Assembly (NCBI RefSeq): GCF_028641065.1 | Contig: NC_073401.1 | Location: forward strand, 20,026,001 to 20,090,000 | Origin: Leucoraja erinacea | Lineage: Eukaryota | Direction: 5' to 3' | DNA: 64,000 nt | Part shown: in pieces, positions 28,031 to 52,261 of the stretch | Layout: the number at the start of each line of letters is the position of its first letter | How positions within the stretch are numbered: position 1 is the stretch's first letter | Program-made: the position numbers and the translations under genes | The notes under the pieces: generated by a model | What the model saw: the letters and a program-made list of their open reading frames with translations, nothing else | The model's database searches: none | Told to the model about the DNA's origin: nothing

Positions 28031-28579
28031 AATTGACAAAAGGCAAACAAGAGCTGGTGTAAATAAAGATAGACGGATGACTAGAACTATCTCTAGCTCT
28101 CAATCAACAGGAGTTACATGGGACAGTGGGTGACCTTATACTTCTGAAAGATCAGTTAAATGAAGACAGTAGAAACTGCAGTTTCTGGTGTCTTGATTAA
28201 AACACAAATTGCTGGGGAAACGCAGGCAGCATCTGTGGAGGGAATGGAATTTCTGGGTGGGACCCATCTCCAGACTTCCAGGAGCTTAATGAATTTGCTT
28301 ATGATAACTGCTGGTGGTTGTATTAATACGTTTCTGTCCTCATTAAATTAAGGGAATTAAGTAAACAATAGAACAAGTACAATGCCTTTTGCAACCTAAG
28401 GACTTTTGATCTCAATCGTTAACTATTTCTTCACATATGCTGCCTGAGTTGCTGAGTTTCCAGCAGTTTCTGCTTTTATTTCAGATTTTCAGCATGGGTG
28501 TTTTGGTTATTTCCCATGCTGCCGTTGTGCGCCTCTTACCCAAGGGGCGGTTCGGTGGCACCCGTTTATGAGTTGCAAC

Positions 28580-28617
28580 CAAAGATCCTATAGCAGAGCT
28601 CTGCTATAGGATCTTTG
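28580..28617. mobile_element. 38-bp palindromic micro-MITE with 8-bp TSD (DDT intron 1)
   Basis: gttgcaac|CAAAGATCCTATAGCAGAGCTCTGCTATAGGATCTTTG|gttgcaac. Confidence 0.85.
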
Positions 28618-28807
28618 GTTGCAACTACCCTGCTGCCCACCCACCGCGTCCTCTTGGAGGGTCAGTGCAGTGCAGACATCCACCGTCAGCAGCCCCGGCC
28701 GTCTCCCCACCCCGGTAGCCGGAGAGGGCAGCTAGTCGGCCCGGGATGAGTGGGAGTTGGGCAGGGCGGGGCGGGGGGAAGGGGACCCGTGCAAAAGCAC
28801 CACCTGC

Positions 28808-28915
28808 CTCCTGCGGCTTGTCGAGGATGGCGGCCGCTGCCCGCGCCAACCGCTCCAACAGATCCTCGGAGAAACAGCTGGCCGCAAGGTTACTCTCCAG
28901 CTCCAGGAAGGGCAT
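28808..28915 (-). CDS. DDT: D-dopachrome tautomerase (MIF-2) exon 1, 108 nt
   Basis: MPFLELESNLAASCFSEDLLERLARAAAAILDKPQE with catalytic Pro after Met; lies in a CpG island; the frame requires a GAG|GCAGGT (GC) donor. Confidence 0.92.
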
Positions 28916-29180
28916 CGTAAAGCGGTGGCTGAGACGCGGCGTGTCCTGTTGCTCCGGGGCCGGGTGAAGGGGGAGGGCGGTTGTGTCGGAAATGGTTGGA
29001 GCAGGGGCGGGGTATGGGAGGAGAGGGGCCGGTTTGGGGATTGGGGAGGAGAGGGGCCGGTGTGTGCATTCCCCACATACACAGGGACCAAAGGGCAGAG
29101 ACAGCTGAATGTCCAGCTCAGCTCCCACTATACCCTCCCTTGTGCAAATACTGATGCTTTCCGTTTCTCCTAGTGTAAAG

Positions 29181-29202
29181 CAAAGATCTTATAGGATCTT
29201 TG
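29181..29202. mobile_element. 22-bp micro-MITE with 8-bp TSD (DDT promoter); further copies at 29352-29370 and 29440-29461
   Basis: gtgtaaag|CAAAGATCTTATAGGATCTTTG|gtgtaaag. Confidence 0.85.
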
Positions 29203-29749
29203 GTGTAAAGTGCTGCTGGAAGATCATCTGGATTGCATGAAACTTGTTGCTCTCCCAGCACAGCGAGAGTGCGTCAGGGAATGTTGCCCAAGTTGGACTG
29301 TGTTCCTCCCTTGTGTAAATACTGATGCTTTCCGTTTCTCCTAATGTAAAGCAAAGATCTTATAGGATCTAAAGCGGTTGGCTGCATCGCTTCAGTGCCT
29401 CCCTCAGCACGTTGTCTGGAATAGGCCAGTAGGCAACATCAAAGATCCTATAGGATCTTTGCCGTCTAGGGTCGTGGACATTGAGGGACAGGGTCGGAGG
29501 GGGCACTCCAGAAACAGAAGAAGGGATAATCACCCCAGGGGGGGCACATGTGGCAATTTGTATCAAAATAGGTGTGAAAACTAACTACTCAGCAACACTA
29601 TTGAATATATAAACGCTGTGAATATATTAAGAGTTTTAGCAGTTTTGTTTAATATATATATTTTGAATATTTTCTAAATTCTGATTATTTTTGGAACAAC
29701 TCTGGCTTAATATTAAGTGAGGTGAGGTTGTGAACCATGGTTCAATTAG

Positions 29750-30856
29750 GTGTGACTAGGTAACCGGGTCCCGATTGAAGACATTTGTGAGTTTGATATT
29801 GTCTGTTGATATTTTAGATGTATATACATTTTGATTAAATTGAGCAAATCTTTTGTTAATATCTTTGGGTAGTGTCATCAATTCCCCTTTATCTGACCTA
29901 ATTTTTGAAATCATATGATCTTTTTCCCGTTTTTTCATTTGTCGTGCCAGGAGTTTATGTGGTTTATCACCGAATTCAAAATTTTCTTGTTTTGTAATTT
30001 GAAATAATATAATAACTCTTTCAGATAAAATTCTATTCAGGTTAAATTTCAATATTAATATCTTATTATGTTTATCCATAGTTGGGTCTTTAGCATTGTC
30101 TAAGTCCAATTGTCTAATTTTTTCTTCTAAAAACAATTGTTCCGTCTTATTTTTTTGAAAAGCTTGATATTAAATTATCGATCCTCTGATAAATGCCTTA
30201 AACGATTCCCATAATAATGAGGGTGATATACCTGGGGTGTCATTGGTCTCAAAAAAAAATTCCATCTGTTGTCTTAGATATGCACAACCCTGAGGGTTGT
30301 TTACAATTTGGGGATTGAATCTCCAAAACAATTTTTTTTTGGTCAATCTTATTTTTAGAAAAAAAGTTAGCGAGGCATGGTCTGAAATAATGCTACTATG
30401 GTATTTAGGATTTAATGTGAATACTAGAAAGTAATCAATACGTGAATATGTTTTATTTATCATTGAGTAGAAGGAGTATTCCCGTCCAGCTGGGTTTGCA
30501 ATCCTCCAAACATCTGTTATGTATGTATTTTTATATATGTATTTAATATTTCGCTAGATTTAGATTTAACCTTTTTTGTTTTGCTGATTTGTCCAGATAA
30601 TTATCAAGGACTCAATTGAAATCTCCCCCAAATATCACATTTTGATAATTAGGCTCTGAGATTAGATTCAAAATTTTGTTAAAGAATTGAGGCTTATCAA
30701 AATTAGGCGCATACATATTTACCAAGGTAAATGAGGTCGAGTGTATCCCTCCCGTAACATAACATACCTCCCATCTTTGTCTATTATTGTGTTCTTTGGT
30801 TTAAATGGTATTCCTTTACGAATTATAATTGCCGTACCTCTAGATTTAGAAATATA
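29750..30856 (-). mobile_element. Decayed L1-clade LINE ORF2 5' part (endonuclease region)
   Basis: YSRIDYFL...SDH...WRFNP...LLWESFKAFIRGSII and FEFGDKPHKLLARQ motifs; frameshifted. Confidence 0.85.
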
Positions 30857-31680
30857 CTAGACCAAGTGCAGACCCGTTGGGTCTGTTCCCCCAGCATGCA
30901 GTTGTGGGGGGGGGGGGGGGTGGCATGCAGCGTCACACACACTAACTATCTCCCCCCCACCCCCCACCCCACGCACTCACACTAATTACCCCCCTTGATA
31001 TTATATTAATATTATTAATTTGCTCCTTTTACCCCATAACCACCCTATCTACTGACGCATAGCCCCCAACTTGCAGTCACAACGAGGGGGGGGGGGCAGG
31101 GGTAGAGAGTGAGGGCAGAGAGAGAAGGGGCAGAGACAGAGAGAGACAGAGACACAGAGAGGGGGGAAGGGGGGAGAGGGGGGTGGAGAGGAGGAGAAGA
31201 GGGAGGGTGGGTGAGGGGGGGGAAGGTGGGGGAGGAGGGGAGAGAGAGAGGGTGAGAGTGAGGGGGAGAGAGGGGGTGCTGAGAGGGGGTGAGGGGGAGA
31301 GGTGGGGAGCAGGGAGGGGGAGGGAAGAGGTATATTTCCTCAAACTAACCATATTTTCATTTTCAAACCACATTATGGGTACTCACAGCTGTGGAGACAT
31401 TTGTTCAGTGTTATTCAGAGCTCTGATTGAGGCACACCACTTGCAGAGACTGATTGAGGCACACCACTTCCTGGTTGTATAGTCCCTCCCCCTCCCTCCA
31501 GCAGGGGCAGCAGAGAGAATGGGGAATTTTGTAAAAAACGTTAATATCTCTGTCATTTTTCATCGACGGGAAAAATCCTTGGCACACATGCGGCGGAGGG
31601 GGGCTCTGAGCGAGGTGGCCGAAAATGACGGTCATAGGTGGCGGCGTTCTCTCGGAAATCACAGCACAGAAGGCCATTTC
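30857..31680 (-). mobile_element. Helitron-like non-autonomous element inserted into an L1
   Basis: Minus-strand 3' end CAGACCC-AAC-GGGTCTG hairpin + CACTTGGT + CTAG|T, the classic Helitron terminus; internal GA-rich simple repeat; 5' end uncertain. Confidence 0.6.
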
Positions 31681-32449
31681 TGTCATATGGTGCAACACAA
31701 TACCTTAGTCATCTAGGTGTTAAGTGCGTACTTGTCTCTTTTTGATATTGTTGGCACTTCCCTTTAAAAAATGTCCTAAAAAAAACCCCCAAAAAAGTGA
31801 AAAGTGATTCAAAAACAAAATAAGTGATATTGCAGTACAGTGATAAAAACATTGTACTGCTAAAATGAACTCACCAAAAGGTGGTAGAAGTAAATTTGAC
31901 GACTTCCGTCGTTAATAAACATTTACCTCCACTCCCTTTACCGAATAATATTTGAAGAAGGGTCAGTACAAAGGTATCTAGAGACTCATCAGACATATAA
32001 GTCTGATTAAATCTTTTCATGAACATACATTTACTATTTACTAACATTTGTTATATTAAACTTCACAAACCTACACCATTGTCTTGCAATAAAATTCTCC
32101 TTCAGGTTGGAAGTGGTTAACCAAAAATACATTCTTGGCTATGTTCCAATTGCCGTATGCTTAGATCGCTTCCCTTCCATCTAACTTCATTAAATTAAAT
32201 TTAACTTCATTCTAACATTATATTAAACAGTTCAAGAGTTCCAGAGTTGCATTTCTGAATTAGTTACACACATATTAGTATATTATTATAAAATTAACTT
32301 AAATCAATATAGTTAAAACACCACCAATAATATACGGGTCAGTTAATAAGTTAGAATCCATCTCACCCCCTCCAGTGGAATGGCTCCCTATTCAATATAC
32401 TAATTCATTTCAGATTAATAAAGCTGTATTAAATCGTTCTGTTAGTATG

Positions 32450-32877
32450 CAATTGCCCGCTGCACCAAAAAAACCCAGAATATAATAAAGGACATCTCCC
32501 ACCCCGGACACTCCCTGTTTGAACTGTTGCCGTCAGGCAGACGGTACAGATCCACAAGGACAAGGACAAATAGACTAAAAAACAGTTTTTACCCCACTGC
32601 TATAAAAGCACTAAATGTAGCCGCCAAGGAACGCAGGGGCGATACAGACTAAGGGACTGTGGTAACGGTGAAATCGACAGAAGGATGGAGGGTTGGGTGT
32701 GTATGCGTGCTTTGTCTGTGATATTTATTTATTTGCTTATCTTTATTATTTTACCGTGGATGTTTCGTTAGCTTTAGAAATGTTTGAATGCTGCACTGAC
32801 TGGCTGACATTTTAAATTTCGTTGTACATGGCCCATGTTACAATGACAATAAAGAAACTATTCTATTCTATTCTATT
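32450..32877 (+). mobile_element. 5'-truncated Rex/Babar-type LINE 3' end with (CTATT)n tail
   Basis: HPGHSLFELLPSGRRYRS...RLKNSFYP motif; AATAAA plus microsatellite tail; near-TSD gttagtatg/gttagaatg. Confidence 0.7.
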
Positions 32878-32999
32878 GTTAGAATGTAATACTATGTTAA
32901 TATGCCATGAAACAAATCTTTTTATTAATAAGTTATGACTTTCGGCTTGCTTTGATTACATTGTTACATGTTCCACGACTCCCTTTTGTTCTCATCGAA

Positions 33000-33902
33000 A
33001 TGTGACGACGACCTTGGTTACACATTCCACAGCTGATAAATGTCTACACTTTGCAATTCCGCCATCTTAACAAAGTCTTTTTTTTGAATATCAGTTAATT
33101 CAAAAGTCATAATTTCTCAGCTTGCCCTCAACCAAATGTTATAACCAAACCATCTCTAGATAGTCGTGTTATTTTACTTTCCCTTAATCTCCTTTACGAG
33201 TTCTTCTGCATATGTATATGCCTCTTCTGGGTCAATGAAGACACGCTCCGAATTCTTATAGGTAATCTTCATTTTAGCTGGGTACATAATACCATATCTT
33301 AAGTCCGGAATCCCTTTCAGAATCTGTCTTTGAAAACAGATTCCATTTCTTTGCTACCTCTGCAGGGTAATCTCTGAAGAATTTGACAATCTCATCCTCA
33401 AATTTCAAATTTGTCCCATGAGGTAATTTCTTCATAATATCTTCCAGAACAGAGATATCGTGAAATTTCATTATAATCTGTCGCGGGGGGGGGTCTCCCG
33501 ACCGCGCTCAGGCTCTTTTGACCCGGTGCCATATCTATCTTCGGTTTTTCAAGCAGATTGAATACCTTTTTAAGTAAGTTGGCAGTGAATTCACGGGTAT
33601 CATGTCCAGTTTCTCTTCCTTCTCTCACTCAACTATTCTTAAATTCTGCCGTCGTGATCTGCCTTCCAAGTCCAAACATTTCTCCGTCATTTTGGCCAGC
33701 TGCCCCAAGGTATTCTGCTGTTCCTTTTTCACTCTCCATCTCGTCATACATTTCCTTCATCGCAATTTCCATTTCTTTCATAGCAGAGCTGAATGCTTTC
33801 GTAGTGTCTTCCCACTTTTGCTTCCAGTCCTTTCGCACCCTTGCAATTTCTGCACTTAAATCGGTCTCAACTTTCTCAATGCATTTTTTCAGAATACCGT
33901 TT
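33000..33902 (-). mobile_element. Decayed L1 ORF1 (coiled coil plus RRM/CTD fragments)
   Basis: Coiled-coil-like and PPRQIIMKFHD...IVKFFRDYPAEVAKK fragments upstream of the ORF2 remnant on the same strand. Confidence 0.7.
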
Positions 33903-33904
33903 TA

Positions 33905-34512
33905 GAAACATAGAAAATAGGTGCAGGAGTAGGCCATTTGGCCCTTCGAGCCTGCACCGCCATTCAATATGATCATGGCTGATCATCCAACTCAGTATCC
34001 TGTACCTGCCTTCTCTCCATACCTCCTGATCCCTTAAGCCACAGGGGACACATCTAACTCCCTCTTAAATATAGCCAATGAACTGGCCTCAACTACCTTC
34101 TGTGGCAGGGAGTTCCAGAGATTCACCACTTCTCTGTGTTAAAAATGTTTTTCACATCTCGGTTCTAAAGGATTTCCCCTCTATCCTTAAGCTGTGACCC
34201 CTTGTCCTGGACTTCCCCAACATCGCGAACAATCTTCCTGCATCTAGCCTGTCCAACTCCTTAAGAATTTTGTAAGTTTCTATAAGATCCCCCCTCAATC
34301 TCCTAAATTCTAGCGAGTACAAACCGAGTCTATCCAGTCTTTCTTCATATGAAAGTCCTGACATCCCAGGAATCAGTCTGGTGAACCTTCCCTGCACTCC
34401 CTCTATGGCAATAATGTCCTTCCTCAGATTTGGAGACCAAAACTGTACACAATACTCCAGGTGTGGTCTCACCAAGACCGTGTACAGTAGAACCTCCCGG
34501 CTCTTATACTCC
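33905..34512 (-). mobile_element. CR1 (HER1-like) LINE 3' end
   Basis: VRPHLEYCVQFWSP...LERLGLYSLEFRRLRGDLIETYKILK...TRGHSLRI; tail ...ggcctactcctgcacctattttctatgtttcta. Confidence 0.9.
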
Positions 34513-34880
34513 TTTGATGAAAGACACCGGGTCCGACGAGCCCGAGCGAGGTCGGGAGACCCACCCCCCCCGAGACAGATTATAATTAAATTTCACGATA
34601 TCTCTGTTCTGGAAGATATTATGAAGAAATTACCTCATGGAACAAATTTCTTTACTGAGTAAAGTGATTAGTTCATACAGAAAGGATTGCTGTGTCCCTC
34701 ACTTTGCAGAGACAACCCTAAAGCCAAGGTAACGTTTAGAGAACATCATGGTGTAAAATAAGATTCCAATCACCATACTGGCCACTGGCTAGTGCCAGCC
34801 ACTGGCACATCCATGTGCTCTTGGAGAAGTTGGCAGAGGATTCCTAACCTCCAGCAGAGGTTAATGTTCACCACTCCTAT

Positions 34881-36383
34881 TGTAAAAGTTAGTTTTATAG
34901 GGAGGTTTCACAGCAGTCGGGTCACGACCCATGACCCGTACTGTTGCTACGCTACTCCAAGTGGATTACACGCGATGAACTGCAGGTAGGCACTTATCAT
35001 TGTTTCCAGCATAGCGGGCCCGTTAAAACCCGCTGAAATTGTCAATTTTTGCGCTGTAAATCATTATGGAAATCAGGATAAGCATGTGAGACATTTAGCA
35101 TACTTCAGAATTCCAAAAGTGAGGAGAAATGACGATAGATAGAAACGAGAGCTGAAGCAAGGGACAACACCAGCCAGAGTGCTTGACGAACATTGGCCGT
35201 TTGCTCACTGCATTTCATCAACTAAGGCATTATTTGTGTTTTTTCTTGATTCCTTTGGCATCTAAAAAGTTTCAGAAGTGATAAATCTGGTTGTAATTTT
35301 TTTAAATCGCCCATGGTTCTCGTGGGTTTTTACATACAAAATGAAAACGCATCTGAAGAAAATTTACAGCCAGATTTATCACTTCTGAGATTTTTTAGAT
35401 ACCAAAGGAATCAAGAAAAAACACAAATAATGCGTTACTTGATGAAATGCAGTGAGCAAACGCGATAATTCCCAATATTTTCAGTTCCGATATCTGCACA
35501 GCCAATGTTTACCAAGCACTTTAGCTGTTGTTGTCCCTTCAGCTCTCGCTTCTCTTTACCTTCATTTCGCTTCACTTTTGGAATTCTAAAGTTAGGTAAA
35601 TGTCTCTCACACTTACCCCGACTCCCACAATTTTTTTCAGCTCATTAATAACATATACCAGAAGTTACGTATGTCCTCCAGATGGATTGAGCGGCTCCGT
35701 GCGACAAGCCCTATGACCCAGTGACCTTACGTGCAACCCCTCTATAACAACTTAACAGGTTCGCTTCTTAATAAACAGACAAGACACAAACGTTTGGTAG
35801 ACCAGTTCAAAACTTTACTTATTATCGGCCGATGGAAGGGAGGGAGAACTCTAGTCAAGTGAGCAATACAGACACTTCACTGTCCTCAGTCCACTTCCCC
35901 GAACAACAGAATTACATCGTATTATATAGTGGAGTTTTTTCACCTTAGCACATTCCACAGACATTAGTCATGGTCAGAGGTACAGGAAAATAAAGGTTTC
36001 TACAGAATGCATCACATCAAAGGCATTTTGTCACATGGTCCAAGATATATTTAAAAAATTGGCCATTTGGTATTGCCCCTTAGATGAATCTAGTTTCCTC
36101 TCTATCACTTCCTCCCTCATAAACATTGGACATTTGGTGCAAGGCATTTTACATATCAAAGAGATCAATCTAGCTTCTTCTCTGTTTCCTCTCTCGTCAC
36201 TTGGGAGACAAGTGGTATAGTATTCATTATCTCAATACACCGCAACCTGAGGCAAGCCTAGACTTTCCTTTCTGTATTAATCTACTGGAGAAAAGCCCAA
36301 TTTGAGCCTAAATATAAGCTGTAAGCTAGCCCAGGAACCAATTTAATATCTTCTTATATTTTTTACTTAATTCAGCTTTATCA
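34881..36383 (-). mobile_element. Probable solo LTR (~655 bp after removing the nested 34900-35742 element)
   Basis: TG...CA ends; absent at the paralogous site in copy B (~42505); near-TSD ctat/ctct; TATA-like (35920-35928) and AGTAAA (~35813) on minus. Confidence 0.55.
34900..35742. mobile_element. Non-autonomous fold-back DNA element with TATA target duplication
   Basis: TATA|GGGAGGTTTCA...TGCAACCCCTC|TATA; long internal inverted repeat (~35080-35300 vs 35360-35620). Confidence 0.75.
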
Positions 36384-37052
36384 CTCTCTCCATGCCCTCA
36401 CTGCAGCACCAAAGTAGCTCAGGTGCCTCAAAGCTCCAGACATCTGGATTCAGTTCCGACTTTGGCCTCTGTCTATGTGAAGTTTGCACATTTCTCCTGT
36501 GACCATGTGGATTTCCTCCCAGGTCCCAAGAAGTGTAGGTTTATTGGCTGCTGCAAATTGCCCCTGGTGTGTGGGTGAGTGGTAGAACTGGGAGGAGTTG
36601 AGGAAAATAAAGTCATTAATATAGGATTAGTGTATATGGGTGGTTGATAGTCAGCATAGGCTCAGGGGGCTGAACAATCTGTTTCCATGCTGTACCTCAA
36701 CATGATTCTAGTAATCTCTGAGACACGTCAAGGTCTCACATCATTTTAAAAGTATCTGGATGAGCATTGGGGAAGCTTGTGCGGTCACAGGAAGAACGTG
36801 CCAACTCCACACGGACAGTGCCCGAGGTTGATGTTGAACCCAAGTTGGTGGAACCATGAAGAAGTGGCTCTGCTAGAGCAGGGTTGGTGTAGCTGGTCCA
36901 ACAATGGCAAGCTGAGGTATGACTGCTAGTAGCATCAAGCATGGGTGGGGAGAATGGTGGGCAATGGGGCTTCTGCAGGGTGATGTCGGGTGAGAGAAAA
37001 GTTGGCGAAGAATCAACCTGACGGAGAGTGATGCTCCAAACCTCTCCTGCAG

Positions 37053-37203
37053 TGTGGCCATTCTGAAATACCTGGCTGGTAAATACAAGACCCCCGACCA
37101 CTGGTACCCCACCAACCTCCAGCAAAGGGCTGGTGTGGATGAATATCTCTCCTGGCAGCCCACAACCATAAGGTTCCACGGATCAAGGCTCTACATGTTC
37201 AAG
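37053..37203 (+). pseudogene. GSTT copy A: orphan exon 3 of a theta-class glutathione S-transferase inside a partial duplication (~34650-38620)
   Basis: VAILKYLAGKYKTPDHWYPTNLQQRAGVDEYLSWQPTTIRFHGSRLYMFK with intact AG/GT; flanks homologous to introns 2 and 3 of copies B/C; no exons 1, 2, 4 or 5 found for this copy. Confidence 0.8.
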
Positions 37204-40200
37204 GTAAACTTGTCAACTCCCTCCACACTCACTGACCCTCCTCCAGTCTTCCTGCCAACACTCACTCCCAATCCTCTGGCATTCTGCCTCTTGGTCTGCC
37301 TCTCTCTTTCTTACAGTAAGTTGCTGCTTTGAAACCCTCACCTTTGAAGAGGTTTTGCTGGCCCTGGCAATTGGCTAATGTGGCTGATGGAAGTGTTTAT
37401 TTGCTTTGCTAATCATAATCATACTTTATTAGCCAAGTGTGTTTTGCAACATACGAGGAAATTGATTAATCGACTGATCTTCAGTCAGTTTATTGCAGTG
37501 ACAGCTCTTCCTACCGCTGCGTGGTGAACAACCAGCTCGCGTTATGATTATTCACTCATTTTGTGCCCCTCATACCCCTTCCTTCACAGACTGAGGCTGT
37601 TCTTTGTCCAGTCAGTAAGGCCCACAAAACATTGCCTCTGCTCCTGCCCTGATTCAGTGCAATTGTTTCTCCAGGATTTACGGAGATGACTTTCAAGGGC
37701 ACTTTGAACCTTTAGTGCATTGCTCAGCCACAGCCTTGCAGTGGAGGTGAGGAGAAGGGCATTGTAGCCACCATGTACAGTGTGGTGGGGAAATCTCCCC
37801 CTGTGCTCTAGAAGATTTGCACTGCTCCCAACAGTCAAGGCACAGCCTGTATTCATCATGAAGGGAGGGGGGGGGGGGGGGGGGGGGGGGCGTGGAGAGG
37901 TGAGGAGCAGTGGTCTTGTGTTGGAGTCAGAGTTTAGGAGTTATGGAAGCAGGTCAAAACATCATAAGTGATAGGACCAGAATTAGGGCATTCGGCCCAC
38001 CAAGTCTACTCCGCCATTCAATCATGGCTGCTCTATCTGTCCCTCCTAACCCCATTCTCCTGCCTTCTCCCCATGACCTCTGACACCTGTACGGATGACA
38101 GCAAGATCAAGATCACTATCAAAACACCCTCACCTGTATCCACCAGTTACTTGCAAGGTTTGGTTCTATTCCTCCTCTTTTACAGCTTTCTTTCCCTCAT
38201 CCCTCGAAGCTGGTTCCCAACCCGAAATGTCACCATGTTCTCCAGACGTGCTGCCTGCCCCACTAAATTACTCCAGCAGTTTGTGTATTTATTTGTAAAC
38301 CAGCCTCTGCAGTTCCTTATTTCAGCAAGACCAAGATGCGTAGTCAAACAGTGTCAGAGGAGGTGATGGTGTTGTGTTGAAGGCCGGGGTGTGGGAAGGG
38401 GGTTGACACTGTGCGGAGGCATAACAGAAGGGGGAGAACTGCAGGGTGCAGTTGAAGTGTGGAAGGAGATGGCAGAACTCAGTGGGTGATTGAATGGGTT
38501 GGGGAGATCATCAATCTTATGGAAGAGTGTGGAAAGGTCAAAGTTGGACGGTTAGGTTAGAGGGGAGGCCAGAGATCACAGAGAACTGGTGGAGTGAGAT
38601 TCCAAGAGTTAGTGAGTGTGAGTCCTATCACAGGGTATGTTATTTGCAAACTCTTCAATGCCACAGTCCCTTCCTTTCAGGTTTTTTGAAGTTGGGAAGC
38701 TTGATCCACATGCTTATACTTTCAAACTTTGTTCATTTCAAGTGATAATATTTACATTGCCAACACACTTCCCTTTTGTGGCTTGGCCAAGCTGCAAATT
38801 GCATTCTGTACATTATGAACTAACTGGGTCCCCGAGTTTTGAAATTGATCCCATCGTCCTGGGTTCCCATCCCAAATCAAGTCCAGGTCTCGGACATTCC
38901 CTTCCTGGCTATCACAGCTAAACCAAGAAAGAATGCAAACATAAAGTGATGTGGGAAGTCGGTGGGCCAGGCGGCATCTCTGGAGGACATGGATAAGTGA
39001 CATTTCAGGTTTCAGTTCTGCTTGTGAAACAGCTTCTGCTTGTGAACGGGTGCAAGGGGTCGATCAGTTAATGTTAAAATTAGGTTATTTTCTGAGATTT
39101 GTGAATGTTTGGATGTATTGAGGGCTGAGGGGGAGTGTTTTGGATTGCAGGGATGTTATCGGCAATGGGACTTAGGCAGGAATGTGGGCTTGTGGACAAT
39201 AATAGGGCAACTGTGATCTAATTAAATGATGGAGTAGTCCTAAGGTGCTTTGTGATCCATTTGATTATTGTTAAGGACCATATTTTCAGCTACATTTTAG
39301 ATATTAAGGGAATCAAAGGACATGGGTTTAATGCAGTCTAAGAGAAGTGGTAGTGAGGTGAAGGACGAGCCATAACCATTGAATTGTGGAGCAAGTGTGA
39401 CGGGTACATTCTTATTCTCATTTCTCATGTACTTATTGAGATCCTATGGCCATGCTTAACCTCACACTACTCAATCACAATCACAAGCACAATAATACTT
39501 TATTGACCAAGTATGTTTTGCAACATATACGAGGAATTTCATTTGCCAAGTCAGTCATACAAATCAAAAGCAACGGAACACATAAAATACATTTTAACAT
39601 AAACATCCACCACAGTGACTCCTCCACATTCCTCTCTGTGACAGAAGTCGGAAAAAAAGTTAAAATATCTTCCCATCTATGCTCTCAAGCCCTCCGTAGA
39701 TGGGACGATCTGGACTGCCGTAGCCGGCGGCGTTTGGGCCCTCCACATCAGGGCGATCAGCTCCTGCATCAGGGGAATGCCAGGTCCCCCGCACCGGTGA
39801 TCGGACCCCAGTTCGGGGCTGGTTGAGCCTCTGCGTCGTTGGAGCTCCAGGCTCGGCCTCTCCCGAGACTGCGAGCTCTTGATGGTCAGTCCGTAGGCCA
39901 TCGGTTGGAGCGATCCCAGGCAAAGGATGTGTTACGTTTCAGGTTGGGACCCTTCAGATGGAAATCGTGACCCAGAATGTCACCCATCCTTTTTCTCAGG
40001 TACGCTAGCATTTTGTGTCTATCTTCAGTATATACCAGCATCTGCAGTTCATTTCTACACATTTTGGCTGCTCCATTGCCAAATCTCCTCTAGGTGTCCC
40101 CTCCTTGAAGAGGTGCTCCTCCACTACCCTTGTTCCATTTGGGGGAAGGAGAGCGAGAACAGAACTCCAGGACACAGAGGAGACATGGATAATGGGTCCA

Positions 40201-40450: not shown

Positions 40451-40942
40451 GTGATCCACTACTCTGCAACTGAATAACCACTATTGCTTGTTTTTGGCAG
40501 TGATGAAGATATTACTCTGAGACATCTCATAATCATAATCATACTTTATTAGCCAACTATGTTTTGCAACACACGAGGAATGTGGATTGCCACACAGTCA
40601 TGTCAATAAAAAGCAACAGAACACACAAATAAAAGGGTTTCGGCCCGAAACGTTGCCTATTTCCTTCGCTCCATAGATGCTGCTGCACCCGCTGAGTTTC
40701 TCCAGCTTTTCTGTGTAACACAAATAAACACATCTTAACATGAACATGCACTACAGTGACTCCTCCACATTCCTCCGAGACATTTCGTTTGGTCTCCAGC
40801 GGGCAGGCCGGTTGCCTTCCCGTGTTTCACAGACAGTATTGCACACACTGGGCAGCGAGTTTAACATTAACTGTTCTGCGCCCCCGAGGACATTGACTTC
40901 CTCCCACGCTGAAGGCGGAGTCCATCCGGGCTGGGGAACAAA

Positions 40943-40979
40943 CAAAGGGATAGATCTTTGCTCCATTGTAGAATCTTTG
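40943..40979. mobile_element. 37-bp micro-MITE in the GSTT-B promoter; a second partial copy at ~41094-41116
   Basis: ggaacaaa|CAAAG...ATCTTTG|ggtacaaa; empty site in the copy C promoter at 52125-52132. Confidence 0.8.
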
Positions 40980-41194
40980 GGTACAAACTCCACGCGGCTC
41001 CAGACTGCTCCAGCGATAAGGGCTGCTGTGTAATTAGCTCGGCAATCTCCTGCGACCTTTGGACTTGGTGGGGGAGAGACGTCGTTGTGGAGCGGAGCTC
41101 TGCTATAAGATCTTTGGTGGAGCCCGAGTCAGATGACTGCTCCGCCCATCCGCCAGTGTCGGTGTGTCGCCCACTAACTCAGCCGCGCTACACC

Positions 41195-41306
41195 ATGGTT
41201 CTGCAACTTTATCTCGACTTGAACTCGCAGCCCTGCCGCTCCGTCTACATCTTCGCCAAGAAAAATAACATCGCCTTTGAATTCAAGTCAGTGAGCCTGA
41301 CAGAAG
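41195..41306 (+). CDS. GSTT copy B exon 1 (theta-class GST), 112 nt
   Basis: MVLQLYLDLNSQPCRSVYIFAKKNNIAFEFKSVSLTEG with theta catalytic Ser11 (SQPCR); caccATGG Kozak context; G|GTAGGC donor. Confidence 0.93.
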
Positions 41307-44094: not shown

Positions 44095-45117
44095 ATCCCT
44101 CGAAGCAGGTTCCCAACCCGAAATGTCACCATGTTCTCCAGACATGCTGCTTGGCTCACTAAATTACTCCAGCACTTTGCGTATTTATTTGTAAAACAGC
44201 CTCTGCAGTTCCTTATTTCAGCAAGATCAAGATGCGGAGTCAAACAGTGTCAGAGGAGGTGATGGAGTTGTGTTGAAGGCCGGAGTGTGGGAAGGGGGTT
44301 GACACTATGCGGAGGCATAACAGAAGGGGGCGAACTGCAGGGTGCAGTTGAAGTGTGGAAGGAGATGGCAGAACTCAGTGGGTGATTGAATGGGTTGGGG
44401 AGATCATCAATCTTATGGAAGAGTGTGGAAAGGTCAAAGTTGGACGGTTAGGTTAGAGGGGAGGCCAGAGATCACAGAGAGAACTGGTGGAGCGAGATTC
44501 CAAGGGTTAGTGAGTGTGAGTTAGTGACTGGAACCTAGAGCCCATCTTCTCCCTAGGTCAGAGTCAGCTCGTTCTCAGCACCATCATCCTCAGATGTCCC
44601 TGGGGGTGGGGGGGGGGGGGGGTGTCTCTGGTGTGCAGGGGGTCTGTCCGAGGAGGGAGAGAGCCGGTCAGTGGGCGGAGAGAGAGGGGGGGGGGGGAGA
44701 GGTGCCTGCGTGAGGCGTACCATGCGAGGGAGGGGGGTTTGGGTGGAGGGTCCATGGACGAGGGTCCATGAAAGGGCCTGTCTGCGGGGGGGAGGGGCGG
44801 CTCATGGGCGAAGTGGGGGAGGGGAGGACGGTGGGGGGAGGTGGGGCATTCATTGGGACGGAGGATGCTCAGTGAGGTTGTGCAGTGCAGCCGGTGGTAT
44901 CTCTGACACTGAGCTGGGCTGTGGGCGGGTGTGAGGTGATGCGTGGGAGTGGAGACCCCCAGTGAACTGAGGGAGCTGCCGGGTCTGGCTGTGTGTGTTG
45001 ATTGTGTGTCTGGCTGATGCCTGGTCATGTGTCTGGCGTGTATCTGGATGCTGCTTGACTGTGTGTCTGGCTGGCCGTGTGTCTAGGCTCACTGACCTCT
45101 GACCCGCTTGCCCACAG

Positions 45118-45294
45118 GGCTTGCTGCCCCTGCTAACCGGGCAGCCCATTCCCGCAGACAAGATAGACGAGGCTGTGAGCGATCTGCAGGCGTCCATCCG
45201 CTCCCTCGAAGACAAGTTTCTCCAAGACAAACCGTTCATCGCCGGGCGTGAGGTGTCGCTGGCAGATCTGGTGGCCATCGTGGAGCTGATGCAG
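45118..45294 (+). CDS. GSTT copy B exon 4, 177 nt
   Basis: GLLPLLTGQPIPADKIDEAVSDLQASIRSLEDKFLQDKPFIAGREVSLADLVAIVELMQ (N-capping box SLAD); cacAG acceptor and GTGAGT donor. Confidence 0.93.
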
Positions 45295-46102
45295 GTGAGT
45301 GCAATGGACCTTTGCCAGTGTGACATACCCACCAGAGGCCCGCTGACATACCCACCCAACCAAGGCACCCACACACATACCCACCCAACCAGGATGCCAT
45401 AGACCCACAGACATACCCAGCCAGACTCTTAGAGACCCCAGACTTTCACTGGACCAGATAACCCCACTCTTCTTCCTGGATGCCAAGCCCAATGTACACC
45501 CCTCCCAGGCTGGGTGCAGAACACAATGAAACATTCACCCTTTCCCCTTCTACCGTCAGCAATGCTCAGCCCCTCTCCCACACTCACTCACAATGAGTCC
45601 CAGAGGAACTCGTACACATACACAGTCTCATGGCTCTGACCCCACTCACTCCATTGCTCAGCCCAGTCTATCCGCTCCGTCTCAGCATCACTTTCCTCAC
45701 ATTCTGGATTGCTTCCGTGATCTTTTATTCACCCATCTCTTTCATCCCATGGAAGCATCTCTCCACTGACAGCCTGCATCTCATATCTTCCTCTCTTGCA
45801 TTTGCTCTCTTTCCCCTCTTGTTTGCACTCTTGCTTCTCTCTCTCTCTCTCTCTCTCCCTCTCTCTCTCACCCTCACCCTCACTTTCACTTCCTCTCTCA
45901 CACACTCTCTCTATGACTTCCATGTTCCAGACTGAACCCTTAAGCCTCAGCTTCACGCTGTTACTTCCTCTCATCCACACTACTCACTCTTCAGCCCCTT
46001 CACATACCCCGCCATTACCCTGCCCCCCCCCCCCCCCCCCCCTTATATTCCCACTGTGCTGTTGGCTGCAGATTTTCACTCTGTTACCTAATTTCACCAC
46101 AG

Positions 46103-46306
46103 CCTCTCGGTGTGGGATTCGATCCGTTCAAAGATCGACCAAAGCTCAGTAGCTGGCGTGACAGAGTCGTGGCAGCCCTGGGCAAAGAGTTATTCGATGA
46201 GGCCAATGAGAAGATGCTGAAGAGCGTAGAAAATTCAAGTAATTTGGATGTTAAGTCTCCCACAACGCAACGCCTCGCGATAAGTCTGAAAAAAGCATAC
46301 ATGTGA
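46103..46306 (+). CDS. GSTT copy B exon 5 to TGA (protein 243 aa)
   Basis: PLGVGFDPFKDRPKLSSWRDRVVAALGKELFDEANEKMLKSVENSSNLDVKSPTTQRLAISLKKAYM*; exon lengths sum to 732 nt in frame. Confidence 0.92.
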   Translation, partial: PLGVGFDPFKDRPKLSSWRDRVVAALGKELFDEANEKMLKSVENSSNLDVKSPTTQRLAISLKKAYM

Positions 46307-46379
46307 TGGAGCCAGTCACCAGGCGGCTCCTGGAGTACTTGTCACCAGCAAAGTCATGTGCTAGGAGCATCAAGCTTAC

Positions 46380-46940
46380 TCCGCCATTCAATCATGGCTG
46401 ATCTATCTCTCCCTCCTAACCCGATTCTCTTGCCTTCCCCCCCATAAGTCCTGACATCCATGCTAATCAAGAATCTATCTATCTCTGCCTTAAAAATTTC
46501 CATTCCATGGCAAAGAATTCCTCTGATTCACCACCCTCTAACTTAAGAAATTCTTCCTCGTCTCCTTCCTAAAGGAACGTCCTTTAATTCTGAGGATCTG
46601 ACCTCTAGTCCTAGACTCTCCCACTGGTGGAAACATCCTCTCCACATCCACTCTATTCAAGCCTTTCAGTATTCGGCATGTTTCACTGAGGTCCCTCCCT
46701 CGTTCTTCTAAACTCCAGCGAGTACAGGCCCAGTGCCATCAAACGCTCCTCATATGTTAACCCACTCATTCCTGGGATCATTCTTGTAAACCTCTGGGCC
46801 CTCTCCAGAACCAGCACATCTTTCCTCAGATATGGTGCCCAAAATTGCTCACAATATTCCAAATATTGCCTGACCAGTGCCTTATAAAGCCTCAGCATTA
46901 CATCCCTGTTTTTTTTAATTCTAGCCCTCTTGAAATAAAG
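46380..46940 (-). mobile_element. Antisense CR1 fragment in the 3' UTR region of GSTT-B (paralogous copy at 56625-57190 after GSTT-C)
   Basis: MLRLYKALVRQYLEYCEQFWAPYLRKDVLVLERAQRFTRMIPG; duplicated together with the gene. Confidence 0.85.
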
Positions 46941-47144
46941 GCTAGCACTGCGTTTGCTTTCTGCAATTTCCTGTAATTAAATAAAATGCTAGAAGTTCCT
47001 GCATCTCAATGGCAGAGTTGTCTCTTTGTATTTTGTCCTGATTTCTCCCTTCACTGGAGGTTCCCCTTGCTGAGGTAACTCCCCACATCCTGCCCCCACA
47101 CCCCCCAGCACCAGGGACACATTGACAATAAATAAAAACTGGAG

Positions 47145-47613
47145 TGTTTAAGAAGGAACTGCAGATGTTGGAAAATCGAAGGTACACAAAAAAGCTGGAG
47201 AAACCCAGCAGGTGCAGCAGCATCTATGGAGCGAAGGAAATAGACAACGTTTCGGGCCGGGGACAAGAAAGGAAAAAGGAGGAGGAGCCCGAAGGCTGGC
47301 GGATGGAAGGAGACAGCAGGGGGACTGAGGAAGGGGAGGAGACTGCAAGGACTAACAAAATTGGGAGAATTCGATGTTCATGCCCCCAGGATGCAGACTC
47401 CCCAAGCGGAATATGAGGTGCTCTTCCTCCAATTTCCGGTGTTGCTTGCTGTGGCCATGGTGGAGACCCAGGACAGAGAGGTCGGAGACGGAGTGGGAGG
47501 GGGAGTTGAAGTGCTGAGCCACCGGACGGTCAGCTTGGTTATTGCGGACCGAGCGGAGGTATTCGGCAAAACGATCGCCCAACCTCCGCTTGGTCTCACC
47601 GATATAGATCTGT
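47145..47613 (-). mobile_element. 5'-truncated Penelope-like retroelement (GIY-YIG endonuclease C-terminus plus terminal repeat)
   Basis: YIGETKRRLGDRFAEYLRSVR...VAQHFNSPSHS...RKLEEEHLIFRLGSLHPGGMN; flanked by aactggag at 47137-47144 and 47614-47621; absent at the paralogous site after copy C. Confidence 0.85.
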
Positions 47614-48599
47614 AACTGGAGAGCAGGAAGCACTCAGCAGGTCAGGGGGGCACCTGTGGAGTTTAAATACTCGATGTTTCAGTTCGAAGATGCTTCCTCA
47701 GAATTGCTGGAGTAACATAACAGGTCAGGCAGCATCGATGGATAACTGCCTCTAGATTATCATACATAACTGGATAGATAACATTTCTGCTTGGGTCCCT
47801 TCTTCAGCCTGAGCTGCTGAGTTATGGGACTTCACGTCTGTGTAAAGGAGCATCTGCAGTTCCTTGCATGAAAACAAGTTTGTTTTAGGGAGAAAAGTGG
47901 GGGGAGCGATGGGTTCCAACAAAGAGACTGTCTCTCACAGGGTGAGCCCGAATGACCCAATAAGCCTGTTGTTAGAAGCAGTTTGGGTTGGATCCGAATA
48001 AATGAACAACGGTGTTTCAGAGGGAGTGGTGGTGGGATCACGTTGAAGGTGGTCGTAATGTCGAAGAATTATATGTTGGATGTGGCGGCTGGTGGGGTGA
48101 AAAGTGACGATCAGGGAAATATACTTATTCAGTGTAGAAAGGAACTGCAGATGCTGGTACATACCGAAGATAGGCACAAAGTGCTGGAGTAACTCAATGG
48201 GCCAGGTAGCATCTCTGGAGAAAAAGGATGGATCACGTTTCTGGTCGGGACCTTTCAGACGGAAATCGCGCCCCAATATGTCAATCATCCTTTTTCTCAG
48301 AGGTACGGCAGCATTTTGTGTCTATCTTCAATATATACCAACATCTGCAGTTCATTTCCACACATTTTGTCTGCTCCACTGCCAAATCTCCTCGAGGTAT
48401 CCCCACCTTGAAGAGGTGCTCCTTCTCTACCCTTGTTCCATTTGGGGGAAGGAGAACCAGACGAGAACTACAGGACACAGAGGAGACATTGATAAAGGAT
48501 CCATCCACAGGGTACTAACCACTTTACTGAAGAAAGAGGACATCTCGGATATCCTCAAGTGTGAAGGTCTCATCTTGGGAGCAGATAGCAGATACAAAA

Positions 48600-51500
48600 G
48601 CCTGTCCCTTTGTGATTTGTAAGCTCACCAGTGCTCTCTTTCTTCTTAATGATGTTCCAAACAGTTGATTTTGGTAAGCCGAAGGTTTGGCTGATGTCTT
48701 TAACAATTTTATTCGTGTTTCTCAGTCTCATAATGTCTTCTTTGACTTTCATTGGCACAACTTTGGTCCTCGTGTTGATAGACAGCAATAAGTGTCCAAA
48801 GGTGATGGAAAGATTGGAGGAAAGACGAGGTGCTGAGAGCTCTCTTATGCCTGCCTTAAGGAGACAATTAAACACACCTGAGCAATTACAAATGCCTGTG
48901 AAGCCATGTGTCCCAAACATTATGGTGCCCTGAAATTGGGGGACTATGTGTAGGGGGGTTGCATGTAAGGTCATCGGGTCAAAGGGTGTGACGCAGGGAG
49001 CAGCTCAATCCTTCTGGAGGATATGGCAGCCTCCAGCATACACCGTTAACGCACAAAACGCGGACTTTATTACCCGTTTAAAACCGCCGAAATGGTCAAT
49101 TTCTGCGCTGTAAATAATTGTGGAAATAGGGCTAACCGTGAGAGAAAACCACCAAAGTCACTTCTGCTCACTGACTTGCGAAAGAGCAGCGTGCCGGCGG
49201 ATTGAGGCCAAGTCCCGGCCCTGACTGAATCCGAGCACCAAGGTGTAAGCGGCCGAAGGTGCGCATCCCTCCGGACAGCCCCCAATCCCCCCGGGGTCAG
49301 CGCTGTCCGCCCAAGGCCGCCCTCTGCCCCGTCTCCCCCTATGTGGCCGCACGGTCACAGGCTGTGGGTCGGCAGCGCCCACACACGGGGCCGCGGCTCC
49401 GGGCAGCGGACACACATAAACCAGGCAACGTCCCCGTCAGCTACAGCAGAGTTGGGGACAGTCTGGTCCCTCCGCCCACCCAGAGTCACTGACCGCACTG
49501 CACCGACCCCCACACCGGGGTGATTCACCTCCCCCACACCCTCCCACACGGGGGACAGACGGACCAGGATCTGCGAGTGTGGAACGAGTCAGTGTGGAGT
49601 CCGGGTTCTGTACTTCCAGCATGACCCGATGACCTTACATGCAACCCCCCTATACATAGTCCCCTCATTTCAGGGCACCATCATGTTTGGGACACATGGC
49701 TTCACAGGCATTTGTAATTGTAAGTGCTTACCTGACGTTCGCCGCTTGTACTCCAGAGAGCGTTGCGTGCTCGGGTCGGGACCTCGACTGCCCTGCAACC
49801 TCCCTATGGATAAAATGCCAATCAATCTTTGCCTGCTTGCACCTGACCACATATTTGCTTGATAATAAAACACATTGCATGCTGAGCTCAAAATGAAATT
49901 GTTTATCAAAAATTATCCTAATATGCCTATTTTAATTGAGGAAAGTTACTTTCTTTACCTGAGAAAAGTTTGTTTTATTTCTATGCTTTGCTGAATAAGC
50001 AGGAACTCTGACCTGTATTTAACCAAATACTCTGTTGAACATCTAAGCTTTTCTTAAATGTTTAAATGTTTGCGGTCATTAAAAGTCTCGAGAGGAAGCA
50101 GCAGTTTTAAACAATAATATTGTAGTCAGCATCTCAACAAGTCTAAGCTGAGGAGAGTGCCTGAGATCTGTTGAAAGATGGTCATAAATCTTGTGCTGCG
50201 AAAGTTATTAAGCTCGATCATACTGTTTTGGTTAACCAAAACTAGAAATGGTATTTGGAAAATATATCTGGACACCTGGCCTGAAATAGGATGAAAATCA
50301 GCTTAATATTAGTAAATGACAATGTTAAGATAGAGGTCGGACAGCTTCCCCACCTCTGCCCGCCCCACCGTCTGTCAGCTGACAAGTACAATGTGATACA
50401 TGAAAGTACATACACTCCAGAATTCTGGTAACACTAACGGGCAGCACAGCGGCATAGCTGGTAGAGTTGCTGCTTCATAGGCCCGAGATACAGCTTCAAT
50501 CCTCACCTCAGGTGCTGGTTAATAGTTGGTTGCTGTATGAGAGCTTGTGATTTTTTTCCAGGTTCTCCTGTTTCCTCCCACATCTCAAAGACGTGCTGGT
50601 TGATAGTTGGTTGCTGTATATTGCCTCTAGTGTGTAGGTAGAATATAGGGGAAGTTAAAGAGAACGTGGGGAGAATAAAAAAAATAGAAGAATTTAAGAT
50701 GAATGTAAATGGGCAATTGATGATCTGTGCAGACTCAATGGGCCAAAAGATCAGTTTTGGGCTGTGTCTCTCTTTGACTTTGACTCTACAAAACCAAAGA
50801 GACAGAAGACTGCAGCTGCTGGGTTCTAGAGCAATGTCATAGAGTCATAGGAACAGAATTAGGCCATTCGGCCCATCAGGTCTACGCCATTCAATCATGG
50901 CAGACCTATTTCTCCCTCCTAACCCAATTTTCCTGCCTTCTCCCCATAACCCCTGACACCCACACTAATCAAGAATCTATCTATCTCGGTCTTAAAAATA
51001 TCCACTGACGGCCTCCACAGAAGGATTGAGGCCAAGACCCGGCCCTGACCGAACCCGAGCACCAAGGTGTAAGCGGCCGAAGGAGCGCATCCCTCCGGAC
51101 AGCCCCCAGTCACCCCCCGGGGTCAGCGCTGTCCGCCCAAGGCCGCCCTCTGCCCCGTCTCCCCCTGTGATGCCGCACGGTCACAGGCTGTGGGTCGGCA
51201 GCGCCCACACACGGGGCCGCAGCGGACACACGGGGCCATAAACCCGGCAACATCCCCGTCAGCTACAACAGAGTTGGGGACAGTCTGGTCCCTCCGCCCA
51301 CCCAGAGTCACTGACCGCACTGCACCGGCACCGGACCCCGACCCCGACCCCCCACACCGGGGTGATTCACCTCCCCCGACCCCCACACGGGGGGGACAGA
51401 CGGCCCGGGATCCGCGAGTGTGGAACAAGTCAGTGTGTGGTCCGCATTCTGGGGCGAATCTGACGTTCGCCGCTTGTACTCCAGAGGGCGTTGCGTGGTC

Positions 51501-51718
51501 GGGTCGGGACCTCGACTGCCCTGCAACCTCCCTATAAACACAGCTGTAAATTCTACACTGGGGCAACCAAAATGTATAGAAATGGCGTTTATTAAAATCT
51601 GACAATGCGCACTTTAACCACATGAGATTTTTTTTCTATTACAAATCTCAAATTGTGGAGTACAGACGCAAATAAATAAATGATGGGTCTTTGCCCCAAA
51701 CATTATGGATGGTATTGT
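48600..51718 (-). mobile_element. Truncated copy of the same Tc1 family, split by nested insertions (48953-51532)
   Basis: 48600-48950 matches ~10545-10895; 51533-51718 resumes the TIR (tataaacacagctg...cccaaacattatgga). Confidence 0.85.
48953..51532. mobile_element. Related TATA-TSD element, rearranged and partly duplicated
   Basis: Ends GGGGGGTTGCATGTAAGGTCA and TGCAACCTCCC|TATA; inserted in the Tc1 site atgTATAaac; shares an internal motif (cccgtt..aaaaccg..gaaat.gtcaattt.tgcgctgtaaat) with 35020-35090. Confidence 0.7.
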
Positions 51719-52000
51719 ACAGTGGAGGTGGAAGAAGTGAAACTAGGGGATGATATGAACAACACGGCCAATTTTCATTTCATCTGCATTGTTATAGTTG
51801 TCACAAAACGCTGGGGTAACTCAGCGGGACAGGCAGCATCTCTGGAGAGACGGAATGGGTGACGTTTGGGATTGAGACCCTTCTTCAGACGTCACCCACT
51901 CCTCTGCAACTTAATAATCATTGCTTATTTGGTCTCCACCGGGCTGGCCGGCCGGCGTGCCTTCCCGTGTTTCACATACAGTATTGCTCGCACTGGGCAG

Positions 52001-52038
52001 CAAAGATACCAGAGCGGAGCCCCGCTATAGTGTCGCCG
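52001..52038. mobile_element. 38-bp degenerate micro-MITE in the GSTT-C promoter
   Basis: ctgggcag|CAAAGATACCAGAGCGGAGCCCCGCTATAGTGTCGCCG|ctgggcag; empty site in copy B at 40848-40855. Confidence 0.8.
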
Positions 52039-52261
52039 CTGGGCAGCGAGTCTAACATGAACTGTTCTGCGCCCCCGTAGACGTCCAACCCGACAATGAC
52101 TTCTGAAGGCGGAGTCCGGACTGGGGAACAAACTGCCCGCGGCTCCAGCTGCTCCAACTATAAGAGCTGCTCGACAATCTGCTGGGATCATTGGCTTTGG
52201 CGGAGGAGAGGCATCGTTGTGGAGTCCGAGACAGGTGACTGTGCCCCCGACTAACCCAGCC

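What the first reader, a model, noticed from the sequence alone, without database searches (positions are those of the whole stretch)
28572..52046. Promoter-clustered palindromic micro-transposon (22-38 bp, CAAAG...CTTTG, 8-bp TSD)
Seen: seven copies (28580-28617, 29181-29202, 29352-29370, 29440-29461, 40943-40979, ~41094-41116, 52001-52038), all within ~550 bp of the ATG of DDT, GSTT-B or GSTT-C; I noticed none elsewhere in the window. Five have recognisable flanking duplications (gttgcaac, gtgtaaag, ggaacaaa/ggtacaaa, gtggagc-, ctgggcag). The duplicated GSTT promoters show reciprocal empty sites: the B inserts are absent at 52125-52132 and 52219-52226, and the C insert is absent at 40848-40855, so these inserted independently after the duplication. 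Known: CA-starting TIRs with 8-bp TSDs fit hAT-like transposases, but typical MITEs are far longer. Inference: these are nearly pure abutted TIRs that are mobilised into, or retained at, open CpG-island promoters and repeatedly remodel them.
Basis: partly seen in the sequence, partly recalled or inferred. Interest (0 to 1): 0.85.

Follow-up and report, generated by a model that had tools for sequence, protein, structure and literature searches.

The report
Transposon excision scars in fish promoters
Tiny palindromes beside three gene starts in a ray or shark are real, but they look like scars left when a longer jumping gene cut itself out again, not like miniature jumping genes.

Summary
All seven copies are present, but only six are independent: 29352-29370 lies in a 66-bp local duplication. 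Three have exact 8-bp flanking duplications, two have near or truncated ones, and two have none. The three empty paralogous sites are confirmed. Copies sit at 3 of 4 gene starts in the window.

The 'mobile micro-transposon' reading is the weaker one. The six copies show five different structures. The 22-bp form is the join at the longest self-complementary motif of the longer arm (1 of 353 possible joins). One copy lost an arm, one has an inverted piece of the arm inside, and one lacks its duplication. These are the product classes sequenced after P-element excision in Drosophila, where a staggered cut leaves terminal-repeat tails at the donor site. P elements also prefer promoters and make 8-bp duplications.

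Best reading: scars of a longer, promoter-seeking transposon that cuts like P (0.5). A hAT-type parent that collapsed by internal deletion is the main rival (0.28). No parent element or transposase was found, so the family is unassigned, and genome-wide enrichment could not be tested.

The parts
28572..28625 (.). E1: 38-bp perfect palindrome (28580-28617; two 19-nt arms) between exact 8-bp duplications; in DDT intron 1
   Evidence: the 8-mer is itself palindromic, so the whole is a 56-bp palindrome
29173..29210 (.). E2: 22-bp remnant (29181-29202) between exact 8-bp duplications; 266 bp upstream of the DDT ATG
29305..29370 (+). 66-bp local duplicate of 29134-29199 carrying E3 (29352-29370); not an independent insertion
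   Evidence: 97% identity over 66 nt
29440..29461 (.). E4: 22-bp perfect palindrome with no flanking duplication
40935..40987 (.). E5: 37-bp asymmetric remnant (40943-40979): 20-nt right arm, short left arm and an inverted copy of the arm start; 7/8 duplication; GSTT-B upstream region
41087..41124 (.). E6: remnant with intact right arm and centre (41094-41116); left arm lost at a short shared motif with the left duplication; 79 bp upstream of the GSTT-B ATG
51993..52046 (.). E7: 38-bp diverged remnant (52001-52038) between exact 8-bp duplications; GSTT-C upstream region
40848..40855 (+). Empty site in GSTT-B matching E7 (single copy of the 8-mer)
52125..52132 (+). Empty site in GSTT-C matching E5
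52219..52226 (+). Empty site in GSTT-C matching E6
28808..28915 (-). DDT-like first coding exon (ATG at 28915; 3' boundary approximate)
41195..41305 (+). GSTT-B first coding exon
   Evidence: GST_N and GST_C weak matches in later exons
52262..52372 (+). GSTT-C first coding exon
   Evidence: 92% identical to B

Best explanation
The units are donor-site scars of a longer cut-and-paste transposon that cuts like the P element. (1) A longer element inserts near gene starts and duplicates 8 bp. Shown: duplications, empty sites, local clustering. Inferred: that the inserted element was longer. (2) Its transposase later excises it with a long staggered cut, leaving the first ~19-20 nt of each terminal repeat as two identical 3' tails. 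Inferred from Drosophila P, where the tails are 17 nt. (3) Host end joining seals the tails at self-complementary spots: at or near the tips (38 bp), at the internal 6-nt palindrome (22 bp), with a templated piece (E5), with loss of one arm (E6) or with loss of flank (E4). Shown: the structures. Inferred: the pathway. The scars are probably immobile; each leaves about 30-46 extra bp near a gene start.
For: Drosophila P excision junctions are short palindromes of the two terminal repeats between 8-bp duplications, with the same junction recovered repeatedly (14 isolates of one junction), plus one-sided losses, deletions past the duplication and templated insertions (PMC2895639 Tables 1-3). The six independent copies show five structures that map onto these classes. 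The 22-mer is the single longest-microhomology product (6 nt) among 353 joins of two 20-nt tails, also top for 17- and 19-nt tails; E2 ranks in the top 2 of 349. This is not circular, since the arm beyond position 14 is known from the longer copies. The same 38-bp centre recurs in E1, E6 and E7 although their arms differ. P elements make 8-bp duplications and 73% of insertions lie within 500 bp of a transcription start (PMC3878927; PMC7776569). P-type elements and an excision-competent transposase exist in a vertebrate (bioRxiv 10.1101/2024.03.22.586318). Target half-sites: T at position 2 in 8 of 10, G/C at position 1 in 9 of 10, purine at -1 in 9 of 10, compatible with the P motif.
Against: No parent element or transposase was found: 0 of 235 frames of 75 aa or more match THAP, P or hAT domains, and no long element with these ends is in the window. 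17-nt tails cannot give 38 bp, so a longer stagger or some repair synthesis is needed. The most informative position of the Drosophila P target motif (A at -3) is met in only 1 of 10 half-sites. The core target pattern fits hAT equally well. The Drosophila Table 1 comes from Rad51-deficient flies; in wild type most products include repair synthesis. Zebrafish THAP9 excision gave larger flanking deletions in S2 cells, and tail remnants were not described in what I read. The 22-mer can also arise by slippage within a 38-mer or a longer hairpin. I found no paper placing P elements in skates or rays. Only six events.
Confidence: 0.5

Rival explanations
1. Collapsed in place without a staggered cut: a longer hAT-type (or other 8-bp duplication) element or MITE lost its interior by abortive gap repair or by replication slippage across the stem-loop. 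Palindromic motifs in a terminal repeat appear as direct repeats at the two ends, which fixes the 22- and 38-bp lengths.
For: The NTNNNNAN target of hAT matches 8 of 10 half-sites. The 22-bp junction at the longest motif is predicted equally. Tol2 also favours transcription starts. The termini resemble those of both a hAT and a P-superfamily element as I recall them (recalled, untested).
Against: hAT excision leaves flank-derived footprints, not terminal repeats. Gap repair should give mostly longer, variable derivatives, yet 6 of 6 independent copies are 38 bp or shorter and no longer copy is in 64 kb.
Confidence: 0.28
2. One reading: the 22- and 38-bp units are themselves mobilised as minimal non-autonomous elements.
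For: Two lengths recur (38 bp in E1 and E7, same centre in E6; 22 bp in E2 and E4). Exact 8-bp duplications abut three of them. No longer relative is in the window.
Against: No two independent copies are identical and there are five structures among six, whereas MITE families are defined by homogeneous size and sequence (PMC3698922). Drosophila P needs 138 and 216 bp of its ends, and Anopheles P-MITE ends are somewhat under 100 bp each (PMC1562414). No room is left for subterminal binding sites, and pairing two ends 22-38 bp apart is hard to picture (inference).
Confidence: 0.14
3. Clustering reflects retention or local hopping rather than targeting (compatible with the first two): long insertions near promoters are removed by selection unless they collapse, or one donor hopped locally.
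For: All copies lie within 24 kb. P elements hop locally over about 50-150 kb. The putative KLHL22 promoter has none.
Against: Even counted as three clusters, landing in the 7.5% of the window near four gene starts has p = 4e-4. Selection alone does not explain the absence of scars in introns and intergenic DNA.
Confidence: 0.2
4. Not transposon-derived: host-made palindromes or captured fragments.
For: No transposase link was shown.
Against: One shared arm sequence at unrelated sites, 8-bp duplications and empty paralogous sites.
Confidence: 0.04

Closest known systems
Drosophila P-element excision junctions (Chan, Yu, McVey 2010, PMC2895639)
   Same: Short palindromes made only of the two terminal repeats, between 8-bp duplications; recurring microhomology junctions; one-sided loss; templated insertions; loss of the duplication.
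   Different: Laboratory-induced in flies with 17-nt tails (34 bp at most without insertion); here natural, in a cartilaginous fish, up to 38 bp, parent unknown.
P superfamily: P element, zebrafish Pdre/THAP9, Anopheles P-MITEs
   Same: CA...TG termini, 8-bp duplication, preference for 5' ends of genes.
   Different: P-MITEs are 205 bp or longer and homogeneous. The extended 14-bp P target motif is not matched at -3. No transposase here.
hAT superfamily (hobo, Hermes, Ac/Ds, Tol2) and its non-autonomous derivatives
   Same: 8-bp duplication with NTNNNNAN core; Tol2 favours transcription starts.
   Different: hAT footprints consist of flank-derived palindromes, not terminal repeats.
MADE1 (human mariner-derived MITE; recalled, from no call)
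   Same: An element that is almost nothing but two abutted terminal repeats.
   Different: As I recall about 80 bp, TA duplication, thousands of homogeneous copies; not checked here.

Membership tests
P superfamily (or its excision scar) | 7-8 bp target duplication | tested here: met
   8 bp is the best length in 4 of 6 copies tested; P gives 8 bp, 1360 gives 7 bp
P superfamily (or its excision scar) | CA...TG termini | tested here: met
   9 of 10 aligned arms start CA; P and Pdre2 termini start CA
P superfamily (or its excision scar) | THAP + DDE transposase in an element with the same ends | not testable with these tools
   none in the window (0 of 235 frames); no host genome available
P superfamily (or its excision scar) | Terminal-repeat tails of fixed length left at the donor site | tested here: inconclusive
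   structures fit, but need tails of 19 nt or more rather than 17
P superfamily (or its excision scar) | Drosophila 14-bp target motif beyond the 8-bp core | tested here: not met
   A at -3 in 1 of 10 half-sites; purine at -1 in 9 of 10. This is a D. melanogaster P trait, not known to define the whole superfamily
P superfamily (or its excision scar) | Promoter preference | tested here: inconclusive
   3 of 4 gene starts in one window; no genome-wide test
hAT superfamily | 8-bp duplication with NTNNNNAN core | tested here: met
   T at position 2 in 8 of 10 half-sites, P = 4e-4
hAT superfamily | hAT transposase in an element with the same ends | not testable with these tools
   none in the window
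hAT superfamily | Excision footprint made of flank-derived palindrome, no terminal repeat | tested here: not met
   the inserts consist of the shared arm, not of flank; so not hAT footprints, though they could be deleted hAT elements
MITE (mobile non-autonomous family) | Terminal inverted repeats and target duplication | tested here: met
   E1 and E2 fully; E5 and E7 imperfectly
MITE (mobile non-autonomous family) | Homogeneous size and sequence | tested here: not met
   five structures among six independent copies, none identical
MITE (mobile non-autonomous family) | High genomic copy number | not testable with these tools
   only the 64-kb window is available

The most novel reading that the evidence does not exclude
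The 38-bp (and perhaps the 22-bp) palindrome is a true mobile unit: a DNA transposon made of nothing but two terminal repeats, moved by a host-genome transposase into open promoters across ray and skate genomes. It would be far below the end lengths reported for P elements and P-MITEs and would need a way of pairing ends unlike the known one.
Probability: 0.14. Interest if true: 0.85.

Novelty: new variant of a known kind. Interest (0 to 1): 0.5.

Why it matters
If these are P-type scars, a vertebrate germ line hosted a promoter-seeking transposase active enough to mark 3 of 4 gene starts in this window, some several times. Such scars are too short for ordinary repeat annotation (inference), yet they would record the cut position of an unstudied vertebrate transposase (tails of about 19-20 nt rather than 17) and the end-joining choices of the germ line. 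They would also be a measurable source of promoter turnover between duplicated genes and between species, and markers of germ-line open chromatin. The mechanism itself is known from Drosophila experiments. I found no description of natural scars of this kind in cartilaginous fish in ten searches of the open-access library; Repbase, Dfam and subscription journals were not searched.

Tried and rejected
Seven independent insertions: rejected, E3 is a passenger of a local duplication. More copies or a longer parent in the window: none; other short matches to the terminal 7-8 nt (21 sites read, including the known copies) do not continue into the arm. A transposase in the window: none; one weak Tc1-type HTH match below cut-off. 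Structured RNA family: 0 Rfam matches at gathering score. Relatives or contaminant contigs among bacterial and archaeal genomes: 2 matches to a 19-nt arm pattern, both lone arms with no inverted partner in the fetched DNA, read as chance. Homology between the DDT upstream region and the GSTT-B/C promoters: none beyond the elements. Deciding P versus hAT from the target motif: inconclusive. Literature on P elements in skates or sharks: nothing relevant. A structural paper on hAT cleavage was not held; two other papers served for that point. The one supplement listed for PMC1562414 was not read; it may or may not bear on the terminal sequences.
Full report
SETTING. The window is from a cartilaginous fish. 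Its kelch-like gene is closest to KLHL22 of rays and sharks (93% to Narcine bancroftii, 91% to Hemitrygon akajei, 90% to two sharks, at most 66% to bony vertebrates). 'Skate' is plausible but was not established. The genes are KLHL22 (minus, coding from 14654 down), a DDT-like gene (minus, ATG 28915), two complete GSTT copies B and C (ATG 41195 and 52262), a GSTT fragment with only exon 3 near 37 kb, and a fourth GSTT whose start lies outside the window.

OBSERVATION. All 7 listed copies are there. The paired-end pattern occurs 3 times against 0.04 expected (0 of 100 shuffles). A profile scan finds no further strong arm in 64 kb: 9 arms score above 15 against a null mean of 0.35, though 7 of the 9 trained the profile. 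Flanking duplications are exact 8/8 for E1 (28580), E2 (29181) and E7 (52001), 7/8 for E5 (40943), 7 nt with a truncated left side for E6 (41094), and absent for E3 (29352) and E4 (29440). The chance of 8/8 is 1.6e-5 per site. The GSTT-B/C alignment shows 3 of 3 empty sites with one copy of the 8-mer. E3 is not independent: it lies in a 66-bp, 97% identical copy of 29134-29199. Only E1, E2 and E4 fold as significant hairpins, of six folded.

CLUSTERING. All copies are 79-525 bp from an ATG. Segments of 1.2 kb around the four gene starts make up 7.5% of the window; for KLHL22 I used the CpG island at 19.7-20.9 kb, where a non-coding first exon is inferred from a splice-donor-like site. Three independent clusters falling there has p = 4e-4, six independent events 2e-7. 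Against a simple 'CpG-island promoter' rule: the KLHL22 island has no copy, only 4 of 7 copies and 3 of 13 island-like segments coincide, and E1 is intronic. One window cannot show genome-wide targeting.

ANATOMY. Read inward from each end, ten arms share one 20-nt pattern with 0-6 differences. The six independent copies have five structures: full 38 bp (E1, E7), 22 bp with duplication (E2), 22 bp without (E4), one arm plus an inverted piece of the arm start (E5), and one arm plus centre with the other arm lost at a short motif shared with the flank (E6). No two are identical. I enumerated every join of two arms cut at any positions. The 22-mer is the product with the longest microhomology, 6 nt, among 353 distinct products for 20-nt arms, and likewise among 258 and 320 for 17- and 19-nt arms; for 22-nt arms it ties with the 38-mer among 417. 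E2 ranks in the top 2 of 349. So the 22-mer derives from a longer arm by a microhomology event. The 38-mer needs arms of at least 19 nt; its microhomology is 0, 2 or 6 nt depending on how the unseen parent continues.

MECHANISM. The closest published picture is the P-element donor site. P transposase makes a 17-nt staggered cut (PMC7776569, passages), leaving 17-nt terminal-repeat tails on the chromosome. Chan, Yu and McVey sequenced the repaired sites: palindromes of the two tails between the 8-bp duplications, one junction recovered 14 times, asymmetric joins, deletions past the duplication, and templated insertions (PMC2895639, passages with parts of Tables 1-3). Snap-back synthesis that creates inverted pieces at junctions is described in PMC2943611 (passages) and fits E5. 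P insertions are strongly promoter-biased, 73% within 500 bp of a start (PMC3878927, passages), and Anopheles P-MITEs are enriched 5' of genes (PMC1562414, passages). Zebrafish has P-type elements with 8-bp duplications and a transposase that excises them (bioRxiv 10.1101/2024.03.22.586318, parts 1-2 of 5 and passages). hAT elements form hairpins on the flank and leave flank-derived footprints (PMC3878927; PMC5873905, passages), which is not what is seen. I therefore read the units as scars left by insertion and later excision of a longer element. The structures and sites are shown; the longer parent, the staggered cut and the repair pathway are inferred.

WHAT SPEAKS AGAINST IT. No parent or transposase was seen (0 of 235 frames). 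Tails of 17 nt cannot make 38 bp. The Drosophila Table 1 is from Rad51 mutants; wild-type repair usually includes synthesis, which could lengthen tails but should also blur lengths. Zebrafish THAP9 left larger flanking deletions. The target core (T at position 2 in 8 of 10 half-sites from five sites) fits hAT and P alike (PMC3276498 and PMC2577343, passages), and the most informative P position, A at -3, is met once in ten. In-place collapse of a hAT-type element by gap repair or hairpin slippage predicts the same 22-bp junction. Together, the two 'remnant of a longer element' readings carry about 0.78.

TIMING. The B and C promoters differ at 33 of 271 aligned positions (12%), their first introns at 34 of 728 (4.7%). 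The E7 arms differ from the majority at 9 of 40 positions, more than half the promoter divergence predicts (P = 6e-4; 0.05 at twice that rate). Both E7 arms share the same base change at position 8, which points to a different subfamily. E7 may instead predate the duplication and have been lost precisely in B. E1 is a perfect 56-bp palindrome and probably young (inference). Several waves of activity are likely.

NOVELTY. Ten searches of the open-access library found no description of these elements or of natural P-type scars in cartilaginous fish (listings only unless cited). Passages of the little skate genome paper mention only LINE-dominated repeats (PMC10115646). PMC10824691 had no shark or skate mention, and bioRxiv 10.1101/2021.02.01.429122 names a skate only for THAP5 (passages). 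The MITE definition is from PMC3698922 (passages). Repbase, Dfam, supplements and subscription journals were not seen, so a longer parent may already be catalogued. I recall longer elements with similar ends in skate assemblies, but this comes from no call and is only a lead.

VERDICT. A real, non-random feature. Most likely a known kind of product (terminal-repeat scars of a promoter-seeking transposon) in a new, natural vertebrate setting with a different arm length. Family membership is open: works like P, not shown to be P. Interest 0.5; a truly mobile 22-38 bp element remains possible (0.14) and would rate 0.85.

Noticed in passing
window 34647-38623: GSTT fragment holding exon 3 and parts of the neighbouring introns but no exon 1, 2, 4 or 5. 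It lies between the DDT promoter and GSTT-B; whether its lost 5' part relates to E4's missing duplication is untested.
   Followed up: partly
window 40788-41194 vs 51928-52261: The paralogous promoters differ by 12% while the first introns differ by 4.7%: faster promoter change or gene conversion of the gene body.
   Followed up: partly
window 52033-52049: The aberrant right end of E7 matches an inverted copy of the nearby right flank at 6 of 7 positions (read); possibly templated repair, possibly chance.
   Followed up: no
window 29134-29199 and 29305-29370: 66-bp local duplication in the DDT upstream region that ends inside the scar; it may have arisen during repair at that site.
   Followed up: partly
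window 34894-35745; related end at 51501-51538: A different MITE-like element with a 104-nt internal inverted repeat and short matching ends; unrelated to the finding's arm.
   Followed up: no
window 48573-49004: Weak match to the Sleeping Beauty transposase HTH domain (E 2.7e-4, below cut-off): probable Tc1-like fragment upstream of GSTT-C.
   Followed up: no
window 6901-7069, 19422-19553, 26970-27078, 59993-60267: Members of an abundant short repeat family occurring as inverted pairs 18-43 nt apart.
   Followed up: no
window 5767-5788 and 15032-15051: Perfect 22- and 20-bp palindromes unrelated to the family.
   Followed up: no
window 59247-63983, minus strand: A fourth, more diverged GSTT gene (exons 3-5, 41-66% identical to GSTT-B) facing GSTT-C; its promoter lies beyond the window and would be a good extra test site.
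   Followed up: no
window 19851-20650: CpG island that looks like the KLHL22 promoter and non-coding first exon; it carries no copy of the element.
   Followed up: partly
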